Origin: a virus
Taxonomy: Duplodnaviria; Heunggongvirae; Uroviricota; Caudoviricetes; Demerecviridae
Strand: one strand, 5' to 3'
IMG/VR virus record: IMGVR_UViG_2974655256_000001
Location: 20,530-84,529 of that record
DNA length: 64,000 nt
The notes beneath the pieces are model-generated. The model saw only the letters and a program-made list of their open reading frames with translations, had not been told where the DNA came from and ran no database searches. A program made the translations under genes and the position numbers. Below, in pieces: positions 21,739 through 42,102 of the stretch (position 1 is the stretch's first letter; the number at the start of each line of letters is the position of its first letter).

Positions 21739-22239
21739 AATTGAGAACCATTGAGGAGTAGCGAACTCTCTACACTAGAAGCTTGCATGCCCATACCTAG
21801 TGATTAGACCTAGCAGATAGGCGCTACAAGTAACGGCCCTAAATGGTAGACTCAAACAGACAATGATACTCAATTGTGGCGGCTCTCCGAAACTCTTCAC
21901 ACTAACAACTAGTTGATTACTCTTGGATTCTCGCCCAAGAAATTCTCTAGAAAGGCGCACCGTTACTCTTTGAGCCATTGATGTGCCCTGCTGCTCCCAG
22001 GGCTAGCTATTACTTGTACGTTACATACTGGCCATAGCTAGGCGCACCGCAGATCCTATCATATAGTTTATAGTGCGGGAGGACTCATGCACGCACTTTA
22101 TCAAGAAGTAGAAGGACTTGAACCTTCATGAGTTAGACCATTTAACTCAGCCTCGTTTTCGGGTATCTTATTCGGAGTGGATGTTCCGCTTACGCCCTTT
22201 AGGAAGCCCCGTCTACCGGTTCCGGCATACTTCAAGATT

Positions 22240-23174: not shown

Positions 23175-23252
23175 TGGTGGAGAATAACGAATTCGAATCG
23201 TTCTGATGTCCTCGGTGCAAGCGAGGTGTCCACTCCCAGCAGACCCATCCCC
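23175..23252 (-). tRNA. tRNA-Ala-like (UGC), imperfect acceptor stem
   Basis: stem CCTCG/CGAGG, loop CTTGCAC, D-loop CTGGGAG; acceptor pairs 5/7. Confidence 0.45.
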
Positions 23253-23491
23253 CAAATTCTTTAGTTTACTAAGGCTATTAGCTCGGCGTAACTACAGCAC
23301 CTTCGCTTCGAGCGGAAGGAACTGCGTCATCTCGCAAACCCGATACACTATTCAGTTGCCGCTGAATCTAGTGGACTAATCTAGAACTTCTCCCGAATTG
23401 TAGGGATCGTGCTTTTTGGCAGCCAGTCCTAGGTCGAGCTAATACCTTAGTGAACTATGATGAGGATTTCTCCCCATCAATTTATATAAAT

Positions 23492-24929: not shown

Positions 24930-25075
24930 AATGAATTTTTAATAAATTTACTTATTGTGTAGGCCACCTGGAGGCTATCAACCCCACGGCTGACAAAGAA
25001 GTTTGCGAGACTCCTCTTAAATGCCAGAATAGACCCGCCGATCTATCGGAACCTACATAATAAGTAAACTTTCGT

Positions 25076-25264
25076 TTACTTTCCCTTTAAATATTGATAA
25101 GTTTTATCTACTAGTTCTTGCCTAGAGATAATACCATTACGATAATCAGCAATAAAACTGTCTATCCTAGAATCTTTTATTACTACATTATCAGATAGTT
25201 CTGATAATGTATCAGCTAATTTATCTAACTCTTCATAATCCATAGAATCTCCAGAATATGTCAT
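25076..25264 (-). CDS. small acidic protein (62 aa)
   Basis: ORF. Confidence 0.45.
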   Translation of the reverse strand: MTYSGDSMDYEELDKLADTLSELSDNVVIKDSRIDSFIADYRNGIISRQELVDKTYQYLKGK

Positions 25265-25504
25265 TCTAGACAGGACTCGAACCTGTTATCACTTGTGCGG
25301 ACTTACGAGAACCATTCTTTCACTCGAATTGAACGAGCTTCTGCCCTCGCCAAGCTGGTTTCCCCATCAACCACGCTAGAATGTTTGATTGTTTTCAGTG
25401 CAAGAGTCCGAGTCTTGGACACGACCGCTTCGCAAGTACATAGGCAGCTTATCATGAGTCAGCACTTCCGAATTGCTAGCCCCGTGTTCTGCACTGAAAT
25501 TTTA

Positions 25505-26149: not shown

Positions 26150-26251
26150 GCTTGTTTCCTCAGTTATTAATGAAAATGGTATCTGTGGCTGAATTCGATA
26201 TCAGCAATGATAGCTGGTTGGCTACCGGTTTACTTAACTCTACACAGAATT

Positions 26252-28791: not shown

Positions 28792-28869
28792 TGGTGGCTC
28801 CCCGAGGATTCGAACCTACGTACCTTCCAGTTATGAGCTGGGTGCTCATACCATATGAGCTTGAGAACC
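28792..28869 (-). tRNA. tRNA-Met/Ile2 (CAU), third CAU tRNA
   Basis: loop CTCATAA, acceptor GGTTCTC/GGGAGCC. Confidence 0.55.
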
Positions 28870-31516: not shown

Positions 31517-32464
31517 TTATTTATTACGCATATCCATGATCATTTGACCATCGTAGCCAGTACCTACCACAGTCTGAGGTACACCACCTTGATATTTCTG
31601 AGCACGAATCATTTCGACTTCCAGTTGTTTCCAACGAATCATCTCAGGAGTAATGGTACGTTGCAATGCGGCGTTAGCTTCAGCTTCTTTCTTAGCTGCA
31701 TACAGTTTAGCATCTGCGTCACGTTCGTTAGCAATAGCTTGGTTATTACGAGCTTCGCGATCTGCTTCTGCTTGTTTAACCTTCTGCTGTGCTTCTTGTT
31801 CAACACGAGCCAGTTCAGCTTTCGCAGCATTAACTTGCTCTTCACGAACTTTGGTATTCTGTACCTGTTCCATGATTACCGGTGGCAAAGTAATATCCTG
31901 AAGGAATACCTGCTTAACTGTATAACCATATGGGCGTGCGTACTCTTCAACTTCCTGTTGAATTGCAGTTTGCAATTGAGCCTGAATTTTAGCATCAAAC
32001 AAATCTTGTGCTTTAGGTACAGACTTACCAAACTCACGAATAGTAGACAGTAATTTTTCAGTTACATACTTGTCTAGCGCCTGATCCTGAGTACCTGCGT
32101 TAATACGGTTAATTGGTGCCTTAGAACCATCAAACTGCAACATAACAGTCAGGTCAACAGTGGATTTAAACTTATCCTGACTAGGAACCTGAAGTTTATC
32201 TAATTTTACAGCAATGTCTTTTGTACTAAAAGTATCGAAAGATGCAAATGGGTTTACAAGATGAAAACCAGGTAATACAGGATTAGGGTCTACTTTACCC
32301 AGAAATGTTTGGGTTTTAACCGTACCATCAGAAACAATAGTATATGAATTAAAAGCTAGGATTAAACCTGCTAAACCAACTACAGCACCAATACCCCAAC
32401 GTTTAATAGTACGAATTACTTTCTGCTCAGAAGTCAGTTCTTTCATATTTTTAGTAGCAAACAT
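31517..32464 (-). CDS. SPFH/band-7 (HflC/prohibitin-like) membrane protein (315 aa)
   Basis: N-terminal TM, SPFH core, long Ala/Gln/Glu coiled-coil tail. Confidence 0.7.
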   Translation of the reverse strand: MFATKNMKELTSEQKVIRTIKRWGIGAVVGLAGLILAFNSYTIVSDGTVKTQTFLGKVDPNPVLPGFHLVNPFASFDTFSTKDIAVKLDKLQVPSQDKFKSTVDLTVMLQFDGSKAPINRINAGTQDQALDKYVTEKLLSTIREFGKSVPKAQDLFDAKIQAQLQTAIQQEVEEYARPYGYTVKQVFLQDITLPPVIMEQVQNTKVREEQVNAAKAELARVEQEAQQKVKQAEADREARNNQAIANERDADAKLYAAKKEAEANAALQRTITPEMIRWKQLEVEMIRAQKYQGGVPQTVVGTGYDGQMIMDMRNK

Positions 32465-32498: not shown

Positions 32499-32573
32499 TG
32501 GCCGAGGTGACAGGATTCGAACCTGCATAAAGGAATTTAGAAGACTCCTGCCTCTCCCTTAGACTACACCCCG
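32499..32573 (-). tRNA. tRNA-Arg (UCU)
   Basis: acceptor CGGGGTG/CACCTCG, loop CTTCTAA. Confidence 0.65.
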
Positions 32574-33385
32574 TTTAAGTATTTTTAAGAACTCTCGTAA
32601 AAACTCTTAAAAATACAGACGATACCGGGAGAGTCATAAGTCTCACTCATTAAGTATTTCAAGACAAAATACGGTAACGTCTATTATTTTCCAGTTTAAG
32701 TCAGGGTGACTTAGTGGTTATGTCCTGCGGTATATTGAGGACTCGGTTAGGCTTGGGGTCATGACTTCCCGCCTTTTGCTGCTACTCAACAGGAGTTATC
32801 GCGAATTACCTGTGCTATTGTGCACCATTAGTGACATCTCTCATGTCAGCATTTCCCACTTTGTGGATAGCTTGAAAAACTACTCCGATATGGAGAAAGA
32901 ACTTCACTATCCTAGAATACCTTCTAAAGTTCTTCTTTAGCCTGGACATAGTTAAATCGTAATAAAACTATTCAGCAGACTGGTTGGTTAGTCTGGAACC
33001 AACTACCGCGTGGTTTAGGCAGTGCGCAACTAACCTCGGAAGCTTTTACGTTAAAAGCATCAGTTATCCAGTTCTTACCGACCGTAGGATTCGAACCTAC
33101 ATCTTCCACCAGTTACGGCTTGATAATACCAATTATACTAAGACGGCAGTGTTACTACATAAGTGATTTCCACACCCCACTATTTATAAATTAGAGAAGA
33201 GTTTAGGGGAGAGGTTTCAGACGCCTCATTTTACACGTTCTAGCCACTAACCGGGATTGCCGCCCCCTGTGTACTAGTTTTACAACTAACCCACCGACTC
33301 TATTCAACGAATCTTAGTGCTCGACGCATCTTACATTAAGACAAGTTCAGCGTAATCGGCTCGCTGTTCTCTAATTTATGAATAT

Positions 33386-33414
33386 ATTATACAGAATTTA
33401 TAAGCATTTAGCAA
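33386..33414 (-). promoter_or_regulatory. T5-type promoter preceding 850-bp ORF-free region
   Basis: TTGCTA-17-TATAAT. Confidence 0.6.
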
Positions 33415-33422
33415 ATAAATTT

Positions 33423-33866
33423 TTAATTAAATTCGCCAGCAATCTGAGCAGCAGTACCACCATCATAACGCCCAGGAAATTCTTCCTTAATCGCTTTCAT
33501 CAGCATACCTTTTGTAATTCCAGGGTTTAGCTTAACTAATTCTGCAAAGTATTTACGAATCTCAGTATCAGATAACTGAGGAGGCAGATACTCCTGCAAC
33601 CACTTATTTAGAATGTATTCATACTGAGCGGACTGCAAGCTATAACTATCAAGATCTTGACCATGAAGTTTAGCTTTCGTCTGATTAATGCTTTTCAGTT
33701 GAGCTTTTAGATAAGATACAAACTGTTCAGAAGTAATGAAGTCTTTATCAACACGCTGAAGATCTCCGATTATGGTCTGGTAGCTTTTAGCTACTTCTTT
33801 ATCAGAACCATCAACCTTAGATTCCTGCAAAGCCCTACGCAAAACATTTAGAATATTCTCTTCCAT
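33423..33866 (-). CDS. GatB/YqeY-domain protein (147 aa)
   Basis: C-terminal KGMLMKAIKEEFPGRYDGGTAAQIAGE typical of YqeY. Confidence 0.6.
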   Translation of the reverse strand: MEENILNVLRRALQESKVDGSDKEVAKSYQTIIGDLQRVDKDFITSEQFVSYLKAQLKSINQTKAKLHGQDLDSYSLQSAQYEYILNKWLQEYLPPQLSDTEIRKYFAELVKLNPGITKGMLMKAIKEEFPGRYDGGTAAQIAGEFN

Positions 33867-34036
33867 TATTTAATTCCCAGTGCTTGGTTAAAAGATTGTT
33901 CTGTCATAACTGCCGAGACTTTAGCGAAATCAAACTTCTTAGGGTTTGTAGTAATTTCAGCAACGTTAGTAGTTTTAACTGTTTTCGTAGTACGGATACC
34001 ACGAGTATTAACACCAATAATTACAACTGATTTCAT
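33866..34036 (-). CDS. small protein (56 aa)
   Basis: AGGAAG RBS; stop overlaps next ATG. Confidence 0.35.
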   Translation of the reverse strand: MKSVVIIGVNTRGIRTTKTVKTTNVAEITTNPKKFDFAKVSAVMTEQSFNQALGIK

Positions 34037-34067
34037 ATTTCGCTTCCTCTCATTAATTTATGAAAGT

Positions 34068-34096
34068 ATTATACAGAAATTTAAGGCTTTAAGCAA
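34068..34096 (-). promoter_or_regulatory. T5-type early promoter
   Basis: TTGCTT-17-TATAAT. Confidence 0.6.
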
Positions 34097-34104
34097 TCGA
34101 ATTT

Positions 34105-34554
34105 TTAAGTTTTCTTAACCACAGGCTTGTAGAACGTATGGCCTTGAATCTTCGTTGTTTTCTTAAACTTCTTTGTCCAGTACGGTTTATCTTTACCACT
34201 ATGGAAGTATAACGCTCCATGTGTTGGATCTTGTGGTAAATCAACGTAGTATATCACTCTAGCTAAATTCTTAGCAACTTGCCAAGACTCATCTGTTTTA
34301 TCAACCCTAGGTTTTTTAGCTGTCCAGCTGAATTGGTTAGACTGATATACTACTTTACAGTAAGAATCAGGGAATTTACCAGAGTTTACACGGTTTTTAG
34401 TAACCTGTGCAACTGCAATCATTCCCTTTGTGCCCTCACCTCGTGCTTCGAAGTAGATATTTTTTGCAATGCAATCAATCTGCTTTGAGTCGTAGGTAGC
34501 ATGACTATTGAAGCTATAGGTTAGGGCAGCTATTAAAAGCAAAGCTGCCTTCAT
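34105..34554 (-). CDS. SleB/CwlJ-like cell wall hydrolase with signal peptide (149 aa)
   Basis: NIYFEARGE...VAQVTKNRV motifs; GGAG RBS for ATG at 34554. Confidence 0.65.
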   Translation of the reverse strand: MKAALLLIAALTYSFNSHATYDSKQIDCIAKNIYFEARGEGTKGMIAVAQVTKNRVNSGKFPDSYCKVVYQSNQFSWTAKKPRVDKTDESWQVAKNLARVIYYVDLPQDPTHGALYFHSGKDKPYWTKKFKKTTKIQGHTFYKPVVKKT

Positions 34555-34559
34555 TTTAT

Positions 34560-34877
34560 TTACTCCGGCCAATCGTACTCAATACGATTAGGGCTTTCTT
34601 GATACCCTTCGTCAAGCAAATCATTGCGCATGTTCTGCTTAGCTACAGGGTTCGAGGTTACTAGTACCACTTTCTTGGGTCTCTGTCCAAATTCTAGGAG
34701 TAAACGAAGAATTTGATAACCTTCCATACCATCTACAGCCAGATCGTTATCCATATAAACGAAATGTCCGGTGGTATCGGTTGTATTCAGAAACTCAATA
34801 GCGGCTTCGGGGGTTCGAATGATAATATCCATCCCATGTAGGTCACGAACATCATCAATCAGAATATGAAAAATCAT
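34560..34877 (-). CDS. hypothetical protein, receiver-like fold (105 aa)
   Basis: ORF with promoter. Confidence 0.5.
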   Translation of the reverse strand: MIFHILIDDVRDLHGMDIIIRTPEAAIEFLNTTDTTGHFVYMDNDLAVDGMEGYQILRLLLEFGQRPKKVVLVTSNPVAKQNMRNDLLDEGYQESPNRIEYDWPE

Positions 34878-40430: not shown

Positions 40431-40957
40431 TTAAATATCACCAATTCTTGTAAGAATGAAAGCGTTTTATCTGCATTCTGTCCTGCCACATAGTCCATTC
40501 TAGTTGCCATTGAATTAGTTAAAGTAATATGATGATGCAGATGTACATCAGCGGATAATGGTGTGGCTGAAGTAATAGTAGAGATATACGCCATATCTAG
40601 ATGATTTTTGACATACATTTCAAGAAGCAGAGTTGCTCCCCCTAATACTACAGTTACCTCTTCCTTGAGAAAATCAGGCAGACGGTATCCAATGTTGCTT
40701 ATGCGTGTAGCTGATCCTACAGAGTTAGGTAGTGGTCTATTTGCATAAATAAATAGGTCAGAATCTCCTAGTATTCTTTTTTGCAGAGTCTCAGGGAAGG
40801 CTAACCAAGTTCCTGCTCCTACAATAATATTATCAGGTGCTAGAGAATCCAATGTAGCATAGAAGATATCTAGTTCTTCTTTGAAAGAACCCCAGGGGAG
40901 CTTACCATTGAGGCCGAACTCCCCATTCGGCCCAGTTGCATAGATTGCTGCTATCAT
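40427..40957 (-). CDS. frd: dihydrofolate reductase (176 aa)
   Basis: N-terminal IAAI..NGxLPW and GG nucleotide motif; coupled to thyA. Confidence 0.75.
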
Positions 40958-42102
40958 TAGAACATATCCTCAAATTCGTTGCCAAGATCTTTCAGAGTAT
41001 CAGCAGAGGTTTCAGTTACTTGACCTACACGGTACGCTGCACCAATCTGAATCTCTTGTGGAGCAGGTTGTAAAGATGTAGTATCCAACCAGTTCATAAT
41101 CCACGGAATAGGGTTCTTAGTAATTACAGGTAAGTGGCTTGGCCATTCTACACCAATGTGCATAAATGCGTTACGTCCTACAAAGTAAAGGTATTCTTCA
41201 AGCAATTCTGCGTTCAAACCAATCAGACTGCGGCCTTTAAAGATAAAGTGGCCCCATTCAATCTCAGTTTTCAGAGTTTTTAGGAGTTGTGCTGGTGCTT
41301 TAGCTAATGCTTCGTCTACCAGATCTTTATCAAACTGCTGGAACATAATCTGGATGATAGCTTTAGACATTTGAGTATGTAGAGCTTCATCTTTAGCGAT
41401 TAATTGCAGGTTCTTAGCAATACCTTGCAGAATATCGTTCTCTGCTAGAGCAAAGGTACATGCAAAAGATGCGTAGAACTGCATTGCTTCCAGACCGTAG
41501 ATTGCAAAGTAAGCATCTAACAGCTTAGCCTGAGTTTCACGTTTGACTTCTGGGAACTCAGTTTCTGGATAAGTATTATCACCCTGATGATCTCGTACTG
41601 CGAGGAAATACTGGCCTAACAGATACAGTTCATCAAACAATTCAACAGAATCTGCAATACGTGCAAATGCTTCTTGGTTTTTAGTTACAGAATCAATAAA
41701 TTCTGCGGGGTCAGTCAGCACGTTACGAATAATATTGCTATAGGCGCGGCTATGCAGATCTTCGAAGTAGCTCCACTGCTTGAGCATACCTTCCAGTTCA
41801 GGACGGCTTACAAGCGGCATAATAGCTGCTTCAGGCGCACGACTAATAAAGGAGTCTGTCTGTGTCTGCCATGCTAAGTTCAGGAGAGTAATTTCCTGAA
41901 TATCACGCGGAAGGTTTGGCCATTGTTTCTTATCGGCTTCCAGACTGATTTCAGTTTCAGTCCAAAATTGAGAACGTTGCAGAAGTGCTAGACGCTCAAG
42001 TTCAGGATGTGCTACACGAACGTAATCTGCGATACCAAGAGAATCGCCCAGGAAAAGGTCAGCGTTAGTATGATCCCAATTCAGGTTTAGTAAAGTAGTC
42101 AT
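40957..42102 (-). CDS. nrdB: ribonucleotide reductase class Ia beta subunit (381 aa)
   Basis: di-iron/tyrosyl radical protein pattern; adjacent to nrdA. Confidence 0.85.
   Translation of the reverse strand: MTTLLNLNWDHTNADLFLGDSLGIADYVRVAHPELERLALLQRSQFWTETEISLEADKKQWPNLPRDIQEITLLNLAWQTQTDSFISRAPEAAIMPLVSRPELEGMLKQWSYFEDLHSRAYSNIIRNVLTDPAEFIDSVTKNQEAFARIADSVELFDELYLLGQYFLAVRDHQGDNTYPETEFPEVKRETQAKLLDAYFAIYGLEAMQFYASFACTFALAENDILQGIAKNLQLIAKDEALHTQMSKAIIQIMFQQFDKDLVDEALAKAPAQLLKTLKTEIEWGHFIFKGRSLIGLNAELLEEYLYFVGRNAFMHIGVEWPSHLPVITKNPIPWIMNWLDTTSLQPAPQEIQIGAAYRVGQVTETSADTLKDLGNEFEDMF

What the first reader, a model, noticed from the sequence alone, without database searches (positions are those of the whole stretch)
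32574..33420. About 850-bp ORF-free region transcribed from a consensus early promoter, with a canonical T-arm but no full cloverleaf
The promoter at 33386-33414 points into a region with no ORF of 60 aa or more on either strand. It continues into tRNA-Arg(UCU) and the SPFH gene. At about 33075-33095 there is a GTAGG-TTCGAAT-CCTAC T-arm. On the opposite reading the sequence ends ATCTTCCACCA, which looks like an acceptor end. I could not fold a full tRNA on either strand. This is a candidate location for stable non-tRNA RNAs, tRNA remnants or a long structured leader.
Basis: seen in the sequence. Interest (0 to 1): 0.6.

Follow-up and report, generated by a model that had tools for sequence, protein, structure and literature searches.

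The report
Large structured phage RNA with tRNA-like arm
The ORF-free stretch is the counterpart of phage T5's barely studied "RNAX": a roughly 800-base, non-coding, highly structured RNA gene that carries a built-in tRNA-shaped arm, is conserved across T5-like phages, and has no known function or family model.

Summary
The window is Salmonella phage LVR16A, a T5-like phage. Two details are wrong. A full-length tRNA-like cloverleaf does exist on the minus strand (33147-33076; Rfam tRNA model 31.7 bits, gathering score 29). "ATCTTCCACCA" is only the complement of its anticodon-side stem.

The region is orthologous to the T5 GenBank feature rnaX ("stable RNA with unknown functions", 719 nt) and lies inside the viable T5 st0 deletion. 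Homologues of 644-1296 nt occur in 534 phage records. They share invariant short motifs separated by variable hairpins.

Covariation supports the fold: 17 and 24 pairs changed on both sides in two blocks, with 0 of 500 shuffles reaching either count. A 10-bp helix made by the flanks extends the acceptor stem, so the tRNA-like element is an embedded arm. Its anticodon arm is non-decoding and variable. A second hairpin shows an invariant AGUCAUGA loop.

No Rfam family other than tRNA matches. The function is unknown. My best guess is a stable tRNA-mimicking decoy or scaffold RNA, analogous to GOLLD and ROOL.

The parts
33386..33414 (-). Early sigma-70 promoter: -35 TTGCTA at 33414-33409 and -10 TATAAT at 33391-33386. 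The inferred start site is near 33379.
   Evidence: Promoter scan, 10 of 12 matches. It is 98% identical to the annotated T5 promoter P 16-17. A promoter was found upstream of the RNA in 64 of the 66 loci that hold a complete unit.
33187..33378 (-). Variable 5' domain. It is closed by the 12-bp stem UAAAUUAGAGAA (33378-33367) / UUCUCUAAUUUA (33198-33187). It contains the invariant hairpin CAGCG-AGCCGAUUA-CGCUG (33366-33348) and the motif UGAAUAGAGUCGGUG(G/A)GUU (33306-33288).
   Evidence: RNAalifold on A3: the closing stem is kept in all 19 sequences, including T5, where the domain is reduced to a short hairpin. Only one-sided changes occur, so there is no compensatory proof. In S113 and H8 an HNH endonuclease ORF takes the domain's place.
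33172..33183 (-). Invariant motif AUAGUGGGGUGU that opens core domain 1. Its GUGG could pair with CCAC at 33013-33010.
   Evidence: Invariant columns in A1. The pairing is untestable because neither side ever varies.
33061..33165 (-). Flank helix: CAcUUAUgUAGU (33165-33154) pairs with ACUGgAUAAcUG (33072-33061). It encloses the tRNA-like arm and stacks on the arm's acceptor stem across a conserved AACACU / AAGA internal loop.
   Evidence: the count of structure pairs, helix 1: 10 pairs, 5 of them changed on both sides, 99.6% of cells paired. The minimum-free-energy fold of the 109-nt piece reproduces it.
33076..33147 (-). Embedded tRNA-like arm. Acceptor stem of 7 bp with one U-U mismatch, D-arm, T-arm GUAGG-UUCGAAU-CCUAC (33100-33084), and conserved elbow nucleotides (U8, G18, T54-C56, A58). 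The anticodon arm is only 3 bp with the 6-nt loop GUAACU. No CCA is encoded.
   Evidence: Rfam RF00005, 31.7 bits against a gathering score of 29. Homologous hits of 26-39 bits in other genera. T-stem, D-stem and anticodon-stem covariation. Annotated as pseudo-tRNA in T5 AY587007 and as tRNA-OTHER, Sec, Ser or Pro in other records.
33018..33058 (-). Two conserved hairpins after the arm: GCUUUUA-ACG-UAAAAGC (33058-33042) and GGUUAGU-UGCGC-ACUGCC (33035-33018).
   Evidence: helices 8 and 9. Compensatory changes include UA to CG to AU at one pair and CG to GC at another.
32863..33018 (-). Motif CUAAACCACG (33018-33009), followed by a clade-variable linker of hairpins (33008-32863).
   Evidence: The motif is conserved in all units. 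The linker ranges from about 66 to 274 nt between clades. RNAalifold finds clade-specific helices, for example 32927-32922 with 32917-32912.
32712..32862 (-). Core domain 2. It is closed by the invariant pairing GUGG (32858-32855) / CCAC (32717-32714). It contains four hairpins: 32848-32832, 32813-32789, 32774-32749 and 32742-32722.
   Evidence: fold_alignment A2 and A4. The count of structure pairs: helices 2 to 5 have 5, 5, 6 and 5 pairs changed on both sides. Model R2 gives a single 154.8-bit hit in the window.
32749..32774 (-). Hairpin whose stem covaries and whose 8-nt loop AGUCAUGA (32766-32759) is invariant. The loop contains the palindrome UCAUGA.
   Evidence: The loop columns are identical in all 26 representatives while 6 of the 7 stem pairs change on both sides.
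32689..32711 (-). Invariant mini-hairpin AGUCA-CCC-UGACU followed by UAAACUGGAA. This module is duplicated in T5.
   Evidence: helix 6, 98% paired, never varies. The T5 duplication is seen.
32617..32682 (-). Three-way-junction region: outer stem AGACG / CGUCU, inner stem UACCG / CGGUA, two hairpins and a conserved CUUAAU linker.
   Evidence: Minimum-free-energy fold and RNAalifold helices with 2-3 covarying pairs. The MAFFT register differs between clades, so the counts here are unreliable.
32579..32616 (-). Terminal hairpin of 17-18 bp, GUAUUUUUAAGAGUUUUU-ac-GAGAGUUCUUAAAAAUAC. It marks the 3' end of the unit in every genus. It has no U-tract, so it is not an intrinsic terminator.
   Evidence: 97.6% paired across 26 sequences, with 3 pairs changed on both sides. 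Folding z-score -4.4. Not called as a terminator.
32499..32573 (-). tRNA-Arg(UCU), starting 5 nt after the terminal hairpin. Its 5' maturation should define the 3' end of the RNA.
   Evidence: ARAGORN and Rfam. The T5 annotation ends rnaX exactly at the tRNA-Arg boundary. RNase P cleavage is inferred from general tRNA biology.

Best explanation
WHAT IT IS (about 0.9 confidence). Window 33379-32574 (minus strand) is the LVR16A orthologue of phage T5 rnaX. It is a single-copy gene for a large, non-coding, structured RNA that is conserved in T5-like phages.

HOW IT IS MADE (inferred, about 0.6). Host RNA polymerase starts at the early promoter and transcribes the RNA together with tRNA-Arg(UCU) and the SPFH gene. 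RNase P cutting at the 5' end of tRNA-Arg releases the RNA. The terminal 18-bp hairpin then shields its 3' end from exonucleases, which would explain why it is stable.

HOW IT FOLDS (shown by covariation for the core). There are four parts. First, a dispensable 5' domain. Second, a core domain in which a helix formed by the flanks stacks on the acceptor stem and holds out a tRNA-shaped arm; this arm has an intact D/T elbow but a short or variable, non-decoding anticodon arm. Third, a second core domain that displays an invariant AGUCAUGA loop. Fourth, a three-way junction and the terminal hairpin.

WHAT IT DOES (inferred, about 0.35; my committed guess). It acts in trans as an accessory host-interaction RNA. 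The tRNA-shaped arm would engage a factor that recognises tRNA shape, such as a tRNA-targeting defence nuclease or a tRNA-processing or modifying enzyme. The rest of the RNA would sequester or scaffold that factor, possibly as a dimer or multimer joined through the palindromic loop.
For: Orthology. T5 rnaX aligns at 91-98% identity to 33203-32574, and synteny is the same.

Non-coding. No small ORF is conserved, and indels are not multiples of three.

Conservation. 534 phage records match. There are 45 unique units, of which 26 are diverse representatives, and all share the same ordered invariant motifs.

Structure. Block 1: 41 pairs, 88% paired, 17 pairs changed on both sides against 9.6±1.5 in shuffles (0/500) and 2-6 in slid controls. 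Block 2: 50 pairs, 92% paired, 24 against 15.6±1.8 (0/500) and 6-9 slid.

Embedded arm. The flank helix has 10 bp, 5 of them covarying. The anticodon arm varies in length and sequence, and in two phages the whole body of the arm is replaced while the closing helix is kept.

Single copy. Models R1 (207 bits) and R2 (155 bits) each hit the window once.

Accessory nature. The locus lies inside the viable T5 st0 deletion. Deletions in the tRNA region are described as non-essential in PMC11464382.

Fast peripheral evolution. The core is 66-74% identical to Epseptimavirus, while the flanking genes are 80-100% identical.

Context. It sits in the phage tRNA island.
Against: I have no transcript data for this phage. 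The only statement that the T5 RNA is 'stable' is a GenBank note, and I could not find its primary data.

Thermodynamic support is weak. The z-score is -2.2 for the whole RNA and about -0.1 for the tRNA-like arm.

The 5' domain and the GUGG/CCAC closures have no compensatory changes.

The alignments are MAFFT-based and the structures were derived from the same sequences. The sequences are also phylogenetically related, which inflates the shuffle tests.

No binding partner is known, and nothing here tests decoy activity or multimerisation. Fast divergence could reflect relaxed constraint or gene conversion driven by homing endonucleases rather than an arms race. Dispensability in the laboratory is also compatible with little or no function.
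Confidence: 0.5

Rival explanations
1. Self-assembling RNA-only particle of the GOLLD/ROOL type. The RNA would form homo-dimers or higher oligomers, for example through the invariant palindromic AGUCAUGA loop. It would then work as a cage or scaffold, and the tRNA-like arm would be displayed or enclosed. This overlaps with the best explanation rather than excluding it.
For: The RNA is large, has many helices, and has invariant junction and loop nucleotides. It has a conserved 3' core and a variable 5' region, it sits in a phage tRNA island, and it is non-essential. These are the properties reported for GOLLD and ROOL, some of which carry tRNAs in a linker (PMC12286853). An invariant loop containing a 6-nt palindrome sits on a covarying stem.
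Against: The Rfam GOLLD and ROOL models give no match, even at E<=10. The palindrome lies off-centre in an 8-nt loop, which is not the classic geometry of a kissing loop. Oligomerisation cannot be tested in silico.
Confidence: 0.2
2. Processing precursor. The transcript would be cut by RNase P, RNase E and 3' trimming enzymes into several small stable RNAs. These would include a free ~72-nt tRNA-like molecule, like the 73-172-nt stable RNAs annotated elsewhere in the T5 tRNA region.
For: T5 records annotate several small stable or tRNA-like RNAs (RNA2, RNA3, RNAIV and others), and their homologues are present in this window. The arm has a 7-bp acceptor stem, which is the main determinant of RNase P cleavage (PMC4201824). 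The loop next to the acceptor stem is unpaired.
Against: The flanks of the arm form a strongly covarying helix. This argues for selection on the intact junction. No CCA is encoded. T5 annotates one 719-nt RNA rather than pieces. In two phages the body of the arm is replaced by a plain hairpin while the flanks are kept.
Confidence: 0.15
3. Cis-acting structured leader. The RNA would control the maturation, stability or translation of what lies downstream, namely tRNA-Arg(UCU) and the SPFH mRNA.
For: Co-transcription is predicted, with no terminator in between. The unit always begins at a promoter and always precedes tRNA-Arg(UCU), though at varying distance.
Against: What follows the terminal hairpin differs between genera. 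It is tRNA-Arg directly here, but one or two unrelated ORFs in Klebsiella, Pantoea and S132 phages, and the unit itself is unchanged. Several hundred nucleotides of invariant motifs and a tRNA-shaped arm are far more than known leaders need.
Confidence: 0.1
4. Decayed tRNA genes or spacer junk in a tRNA island, with one pseudo-tRNA left over.
For: Only one tRNA-model match is present and it is weak. AY587007 labels it a pseudogene. The region can be deleted in T5.
Against: Ordered invariant motifs and covarying helices extend over more than 600 nt outside the tRNA-like part, across several genera. No other tRNA-like fragment is found, even at E<=10.
Confidence: 0.02
5. One or more small proteins are encoded, as some GenBank records annotate.
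For: Hypothetical proteins of 34-60 aa are annotated in this region in several records.
Against: None of the six ORFs is kept beyond near-identical genomes. Frameshifts and stop codons appear at 87-96% identity.
Confidence: 0.02

Closest known systems
Phage T5 rnaX / RNAX (GenBank AY543070, misc_RNA complement 40848..41566, 'stable RNA with unknown functions'); pseudo-tRNA 41285..41356 in AY587007
   Same: It is the orthologous locus. It has the same promoter (P 16-17), the same neighbours (T5.081/YqeY-like gene upstream, tRNA-Arg and a Band_7 gene downstream), and 91-98% identity over the core.
   Different: LVR16A keeps a ~165-nt 5' domain that T5 has reduced to a hairpin. T5 has an internal duplication of the AGUCACCUUGAC-UAAACUGGAA module. 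The T5 annotation gives no structure, family or function, and I found no paper about it.
GOLLD and ROOL large 'ornate' RNAs of phages and prophages
   Same: All are phage-encoded and lie in or next to tRNA islands. All are hundreds of nucleotides long with many conserved helices, have a conserved 3' part and a variable 5' part, are non-essential, and have no known function. GOLLD sometimes has tRNAs inside a linker (PMC12286853).
   Different: There is no sequence or model similarity to either family. Here the tRNA-like element is a degenerate, structurally integrated arm rather than a functional tRNA in a linker. Oligomerisation has not been shown.
Small stable RNAs of phage tRNA regions (T5 RNA2, RNA3 and RNAIV, annotated as tRNA-like or stable RNAs; T4 species 1 and 2 RNAs, from my own knowledge)
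   Same: They share the genomic neighbourhood, are co-transcribed with tRNAs, are probably released by tRNA-processing enzymes, and have no known function.
   Different: Those RNAs are 70-170 nt long. This one is 650-1300 nt and has several domains.
Bacterial Y RNA YrlA (tRNA-like domain that binds Ro60/Rsr)
   Same: It is a non-coding RNA that contains a tRNA mimic with conserved D/T-loop elbow nucleotides and a non-decoding stem in the anticodon position. A 6-nt 'anticodon loop' is reported for D. radiodurans Yrn1 (PMC4201824).
   Different: In YrlA the order of the arms is permuted and the acceptor position is a closed stem-loop, with the open ends leading to the Ro-binding helix. Here the order is the normal tRNA order and the open ends leave through the acceptor stem. 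YrlA is ~100 nt and is encoded next to Ro60. No Y RNA model matched.
tRNA-like elements inside long non-coding RNAs (MALAT1 mascRNA; plant viral tRNA-like structures); from my own knowledge
   Same: A tRNA-shaped module is embedded in a much longer RNA and is read by tRNA-recognising enzymes.
   Different: Those modules sit at the 3' end and are cleaved off or aminoacylated. This one is internal, and a covarying helix locks its two flanks together.

Membership tests
T5 rnaX orthologous group | Sequence homology to the annotated T5 rnaX over most of its length | tested here: met
   T5 rnaX positions 8-517 and 582-719 align to window 33203-32689 and 32711-32574 at 91.5% and 97.8% identity.
T5 rnaX orthologous group | Same genomic position and the same promoter | tested here: met
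   It lies between the T5.081-like (YqeY) gene and tRNA-Arg / Band_7. The promoter is 98% identical to P 16-17.
T5 rnaX orthologous group | Accumulates as a stable RNA in infected cells | not testable with these tools
   The only support is the GenBank note for T5. No expression data were available.
tRNA (Rfam RF00005) | Covariance-model score at or above the gathering threshold over the full model | tested here: met
   31.7 bits against 29, model positions 1-71. The anticodon arm is skipped as an 18-nt local insertion.
tRNA (Rfam RF00005) | 5-bp anticodon stem with a 7-nt loop and U33 | tested here: not met
   The stem is 3 bp and the loop is the 6-nt GUAACU. Other clades have UUCACC, a long arm with an inner hairpin, or no arm at all. 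ARAGORN makes no call.
tRNA (Rfam RF00005) | Free acceptor end with CCA, either encoded or added after processing | tested here: inconclusive
   No CCA is encoded (the sequence runs GGUCGGU-AAGA). The flanks form a covarying 10-bp helix. Processing in vivo cannot be tested here.
GOLLD / ROOL large phage RNAs | Match to the Rfam family models | tested here: not met
   No hit at E<=10 in the window region, nor at E<=1 in five diverse homologues.
GOLLD / ROOL large phage RNAs | Phage-encoded, near a tRNA island, more than 500 nt, with many covarying helices | tested here: met
   The published description is in PMC12286853.
GOLLD / ROOL large phage RNAs | Homo-oligomeric nanocage assembly | not testable with these tools
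   The only lead is an invariant loop that contains a palindrome.
YrlA / bacterial Y RNA | Permuted tRNA-like domain (T-arm, closed acceptor-like stem-loop, D-arm) attached to a Ro-binding helix | tested here: not met
   The arm order is the normal tRNA order and the open ends exit through the acceptor stem. The YrlA description is in PMC4201824.
YrlA / bacterial Y RNA | Encoded next to a Ro60/Rsr (TROVE) gene | tested here: not met
   The neighbours are a YqeY-like gene, DUF7616, a cell-wall hydrolase and a Band_7 gene. The rest of the window was not screened for a TROVE domain.
tmRNA | Acceptor and T-arm formed by the RNA's own 5' and 3' ends, enclosing a tag reading frame | tested here: not met
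   ARAGORN reports no tmRNA. The tRNA-like part is contiguous and internal.
Intrinsic terminator (for the 3' hairpin) | GC-rich stem followed by a run of U | tested here: not met
   The hairpin is AU-rich and is followed by UUAAA and then tRNA-Arg. The terminator scan does not call it.

The most novel reading that the evidence does not exclude
RNAX would be a third, sequence-unrelated class of large ornate phage RNA, alongside GOLLD and ROOL. It would assemble into an RNA-only dimer or multimer through its invariant palindromic loop, and it would use its tRNA-shaped arms to capture tRNA-recognising host factors, for example tRNA-cleaving defence nucleases. Because it sits in T5, a classical and genetically tractable coliphage, the long-open question of what such RNAs do next to phage tRNA islands could be tested directly.
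Probability: 0.2. Interest if true: 0.85.

Novelty: new variant of a known kind. Interest (0 to 1): 0.6.

Why it matters
Three reasons.

1. T5 is a textbook phage, yet this 0.7-1.3 kb RNA gene has no Rfam family. I found no paper on it in the searchable library. It is annotated inconsistently in more than 500 genomes: as nothing, as short hypothetical proteins, or as tRNA-OTHER, Sec, Ser or Pro. The covariance models built here could correct those annotations.

2. Large structured RNAs next to phage tRNA islands (GOLLD since 2009, ROOL since 2017) still have no known function. An analogous RNA in a phage with good genetics, viable deletion mutants and well-characterised hosts would make that question testable.

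3. The maintained tRNA elbow, combined with a freely varying anticodon arm, points to recognition by something that reads tRNA shape. This is topical because many anti-phage systems cleave tRNAs and T5 tRNAs are already known to counter one of them (PARIS).

Tried and rejected
- **First motif scan.** It used the wrong spacer length, which was my error, and returned nothing. I repeated it correctly.
- **Bacterial genomes.** The two pattern matches (L078, L079) and the metagenome match L068 lack every other motif, so they are chance hits. The family therefore looks confined to T5-like phages.
- **Possible distant relatives.** A second motif scan gave two leads: L081, a 112.7-kb contig with a tRNA cluster, and L082, a 25-kb contig. 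Both have a GG-AGUCAUGA-CC hairpin followed by AACCAC. L082 also shares the 13-mer GGAAAUCACUUAU. Models R1 and R2 score them no better than coding-sequence chance matches (E 0.35-0.43, hairpin only). I do not count them as members.
- **L082 tRNA-like piece.** Its similarity to phi92-like coliphages turned out to be an ordinary, unannotated tRNA cluster.
- **Rfam.** Nothing but tRNA reached significance in the window or in five diverse homologues.
- **Small ORFs.** Rejected.
- **Kink-turn.** By inspection, the AACACU/AAGA internal loop does not fit the kink-turn consensus.
- **Pseudoknot at 33003-32975.** The two overlapping hairpins (GUUGGUU/AACCAAC and CAGACU/AGUCUG) cannot form an H-type pseudoknot with 0-1-nt loops. 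Only the first is kept in Epseptimavirus.
- **Three-way-junction region.** MAFFT puts it out of register between clades, so I left it out of the pair counts.
- **Literature.** Searches for RNAX, T5 stable RNAs and T5 transcriptomics found nothing on this RNA.
Full report
**Source and observation.** The 847-bp region is 100% identical to Salmonella phage LVR16A (MF681663), a T5-like Tequintavirus. All genes here are on the minus strand. It is 98% identical to the annotated T5 promoter 'P 16-17'. No terminator-like site follows until 31493-31462. Transcription should therefore continue through tRNA-Arg(UCU) at 32499-32573 and the Band_7/SPFH gene at 31517-32464. The largest ORFs in the region are 60 aa (TTG start), 59, 45, 44 and 34 aa. 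The T-arm lies at 33100-33084.

- ARAGORN finds no tRNA. The Rfam tRNA covariance model, however, gives a full-length match at 33147-33076 on the minus strand, at 31.7 bits against a gathering score of 29. The sequence also folds as a four-arm cloverleaf.
- 'ATCTTCCACCA' on the plus strand is simply the complement of the anticodon-side stem and variable region of that element.

**Identity.** In T5 record AY543070 the homologous stretch is annotated as misc_RNA rnaX, 'RNAX, stable RNA with unknown functions'. It is 719 nt long, runs from promoter P 16-17 to the first base before tRNA-Arg, and aligns to the window at 91-98% identity. A second T5 record, AY587007, marks only a pseudo-tRNA there. 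The T5 st0 deletion mutant (AY692264) lacks the whole locus and is a viable laboratory strain. Deletions in the T5 tRNA region are described as non-essential in PMC11464382. I found no paper that describes RNAX. The claim that it is 'stable' therefore rests on a database note.

**Family and architecture.** BLAST finds the region in 534 phage records: Tequintavirus, Epseptimavirus, Klebsiella Sugarlandvirus, Pantoea AAS21, Yersinia phiR2-01 and others. Scans for a conserved motif recovered only T5-like genomes from viral and metagenomic collections and nothing real from 185,579 bacterial and archaeal species genomes.

From 66 loci with a complete unit I extracted 64 units with a recognisable promoter, giving 45 unique sequences and 26 diverse representatives. 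Each unit starts at the promoter and ends with the same terminal hairpin. Lengths run from 644 to 1296 nt. All units carry the same ordered set of short invariant motifs, separated by hairpins that differ in sequence and length or are swapped outright:
- AUAGUGGGGUGU
- ACUUAUG
- AACACUGCC
- AAGA..GAUAACU
- CUAAACCACG
- AGUGGGAAA
- GG-AGUCAUGA-CC
- AUAACCAC
- AGUCACCYUGACU-UAAACUGGAA
- the terminal hairpin

The 5' domain (33378-33187) is optional. T5 has only its closing stem as a short hairpin, and phages S113 and H8 carry an HNH endonuclease gene in its place.

**Not coding.** None of the six small ORFs survives outside near-identical genomes. The 59-aa ORF that some records annotate is frameshifted at 96% identity and is broken in T5.

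**Structure.** I counted pairs in two blocks.

| Block | Window span | Sequences | Pairs | Cells paired | Pairs changed on both sides | Shuffled (0/500 reach it) | Slid controls |
|---|---|---|---|---|---|---|---|
| 1 | 33191-33011 | 25 | 41 | 88.4% | 17 | 9.6±1.5 | 2-6 |
| 2 | 32863-32579 | 26 | 50 | 91.7% | 24 | 15.6±1.8 | 6-9 |

- The best-supported helix is not inside the tRNA-like element. It is formed by the element's two flanks, 33165-33154 with 33072-33061. It has 10 bp, 5 of them changed on both sides, and 99.6% of cells are paired. It continues the acceptor stem across a conserved AACACU/AAGA internal loop.
- In block 2, four hairpins each have 5-6 covarying pairs.
- The 5' domain's 12-bp closing stem is conserved but shows only one-sided changes.
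- The GUGG/CCAC pairings that would close each core domain never vary, so they are unproven.
- Covariance models built from the two blocks each hit the window once: 207 bits at 33186-33006 and 155 bits at 32863-32712.
- Caveats: the structures were derived from these same sequences, the sequences are related, and thermodynamic z-scores are modest (-2.2 for the whole RNA, about -0.1 for the arm, -4.4 for the terminal hairpin).

**The tRNA-like arm.**
- It has a 7-bp acceptor stem with one U-U mismatch, a D-arm and a canonical T-arm.
- The nucleotides that build the tRNA elbow (U8, G18, T54-C56, A58) are at least 90% conserved.
- The T, D and anticodon stems all covary.
- The anticodon arm cannot decode. 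Here it is 3 bp with a 6-nt loop, GUAACU.
- Other clades have UUCACC, which some pipelines misread as tRNA-Sec, or a long arm with an inner hairpin. In two phages the whole body is replaced by a plain hairpin while the closing helix and flanks are kept.
- No CCA is encoded.

Taken together, selection seems to act on the tRNA shape and on its attachment to the rest of the RNA, not on decoding.

**Other notable features.** The hairpin at 32774-32749 has a stem in which 6 of 7 pairs covary. Its 8-nt loop AGUCAUGA is identical in all 26 representatives and contains the palindrome UCAUGA. This is a candidate site for loop-loop self-association or for binding a partner.

Between this phage and Epseptimavirus relatives, the flanking protein genes are 80-100% identical in DNA but the RNA core is only 66-74% identical. 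Against Klebsiella and Pantoea phages, the RNA (68-73%) is as conserved as the flanks or more so (60-66%). The motifs are therefore fixed while the helices turn over quickly.

**How it most likely works.**
- *Shown:* it is an orthologue of T5 rnaX, non-coding, single-copy, conserved, and folded into covarying helices with an embedded tRNA-shaped arm.
- *Inferred, about 0.6:* it is made early as the 5' part of a co-transcript, freed by RNase P cutting at tRNA-Arg, and protected by the terminal hairpin. T5 annotates the 3' end exactly at that boundary.
- *Inferred, about 0.35:* it acts in trans as an accessory decoy or scaffold whose arm engages a factor that recognises tRNA shape.

The grounds for the last point are indirect. 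They are the position in the tRNA island, the maintained elbow with a free-running anticodon arm, dispensability in the laboratory, and fast module turnover among close relatives.

**Rivals.**
- Self-assembling particle of the GOLLD/ROOL type (0.2; this overlaps with my best guess).
- Precursor cut into small stable RNAs, including a free tRNA-like molecule (0.15). The covarying flank helix and the phages that replaced the body of the arm argue against it.
- Cis-acting leader for tRNA-Arg and SPFH (0.1). The unit is unchanged where unrelated ORFs follow it instead, which argues against it.
- Decayed tRNA junk (0.02) or small proteins (0.02). Both are contradicted here.

**Comparison with what is known.**
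- It is a member of the T5 rnaX orthologous group; sequence, synteny and promoter were all tested and met.
- It is not a tRNA in the functional sense. It passes the Rfam score but fails the anticodon-arm criteria.
- It is not GOLLD or ROOL, since it gives no model match. It does share their lifestyle: phage-encoded, next to tRNA islands, large and many-helixed, with a conserved 3' part and a variable 5' part, non-essential, and sometimes with a tRNA inside (PMC12286853).
- It is not a YrlA-type Y RNA. Those have a permuted arm order, a closed acceptor-like stem-loop and a neighbouring Ro60 gene (PMC4201824).
- It is not tmRNA.

**Novelty.** The existence of the locus has been on record in GenBank since the T5 genome was deposited. 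What appears to be new:
- the family-wide picture;
- the covariation-supported fold;
- the finding that the 'pseudo-tRNA' is a structurally integrated arm;
- the invariant palindromic loop;
- the parallel with GOLLD and ROOL.

I rate it a new variant of a known kind (large structured phage RNAs of tRNA islands), with interest 0.6.

**Dead ends.** These are listed under 'tried and rejected'. Most notably, two tempting distant look-alikes (L081, L082) were not supported by either covariance model.

Noticed in passing
window 28795-28869 (-) and 23175-23253 (-): The two tRNA finders disagree. Rfam calls a tRNA at 28795-28869 (38.2 bits) that ARAGORN misses; it sits where T5 has tRNA-Ile2(CAU) next to tRNA-Ser(GCU). 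ARAGORN calls a second tRNA-Ala(tgc) at 23175-23253 that does not reach the Rfam gathering score.
   Followed up: no
window 24956-25058, 25259-25383, 26177-26249, 22099-22236, 23273-23444 (all -): The window holds homologues of five other 'stable RNAs of unknown function' annotated in T5: rnaIV (97%), rna2 (96%, 'tRNA-like'), rna3 (99%, 'putative tRNA-like'), RNA1 (78%) and RNA2H (97%). None matches a non-tRNA Rfam family at gathering score.
   Followed up: partly
L035 1803-2300 (-) (Salmonella phage S113) and L020 (phage H8): In these phages a 165-aa HNH_3 endonuclease ORF sits between the promoter and the RNA core, exactly where other phages have the 5' domain of the RNA. Homing endonucleases may drive the mosaicism seen at this locus.
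   Followed up: partly
L005 8986-9051 (T5 AY543070) and L070: T5 and one metagenomic relative carry an internal duplication of the AGUCACCUUGAC-UAAACUGGAA module, with the two copies 87 nt apart. This adds about 64 nt that LVR16A lacks.
   Followed up: partly
window 33183-32579 compared with flanks 33423-34572 and 31517-32464: Among close relatives (Epseptimavirus) the RNA core is much more diverged (66-74% identity) than the flanking protein genes (80-100%). Against distant genera it is as conserved as they are, or more so. Invariant motif islands sit in rapidly turning-over helices.
   Followed up: partly
L082 12800-13170 (-) and L081 14040-14280 (-): Two uncultivated viral contigs have a GG-AGUCAUGA-CC hairpin followed by AACCAC, next to a degenerate tRNA-like element. 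L082 also shares the 13-mer GGAAAUCACUUAU with the window. Neither covariance model supports homology beyond the hairpin, so it is unclear whether this is a shared motif or chance.
   Followed up: yes
window 33423-33866 (-): The gene just upstream of the promoter is annotated in other records variously as 'tRNA amidotransferase', 'recombination-related exonuclease' or 'YqeY'. It matches Pfam YqeY only at 26.2 bits, just under the cut-off of 27. It is absent upstream of the RNA in Klebsiella Sugarlandvirus phages.
   Followed up: partly
L090 (Escherichia phage vB_vPM_PD06, MH816848 94900-96100): This GenBank record has a cluster of at least eight tRNA genes (Rfam 49-65 bits) with no tRNA annotation at all.
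   Followed up: no
window 33003-32975 (-): Two mutually exclusive hairpins overlap here: GUUGGUU/AACCAAC and CAGACU/AGUCUG. Only the first is kept in Epseptimavirus. This may be a conformational switch, or it may be coincidence.
   Followed up: no
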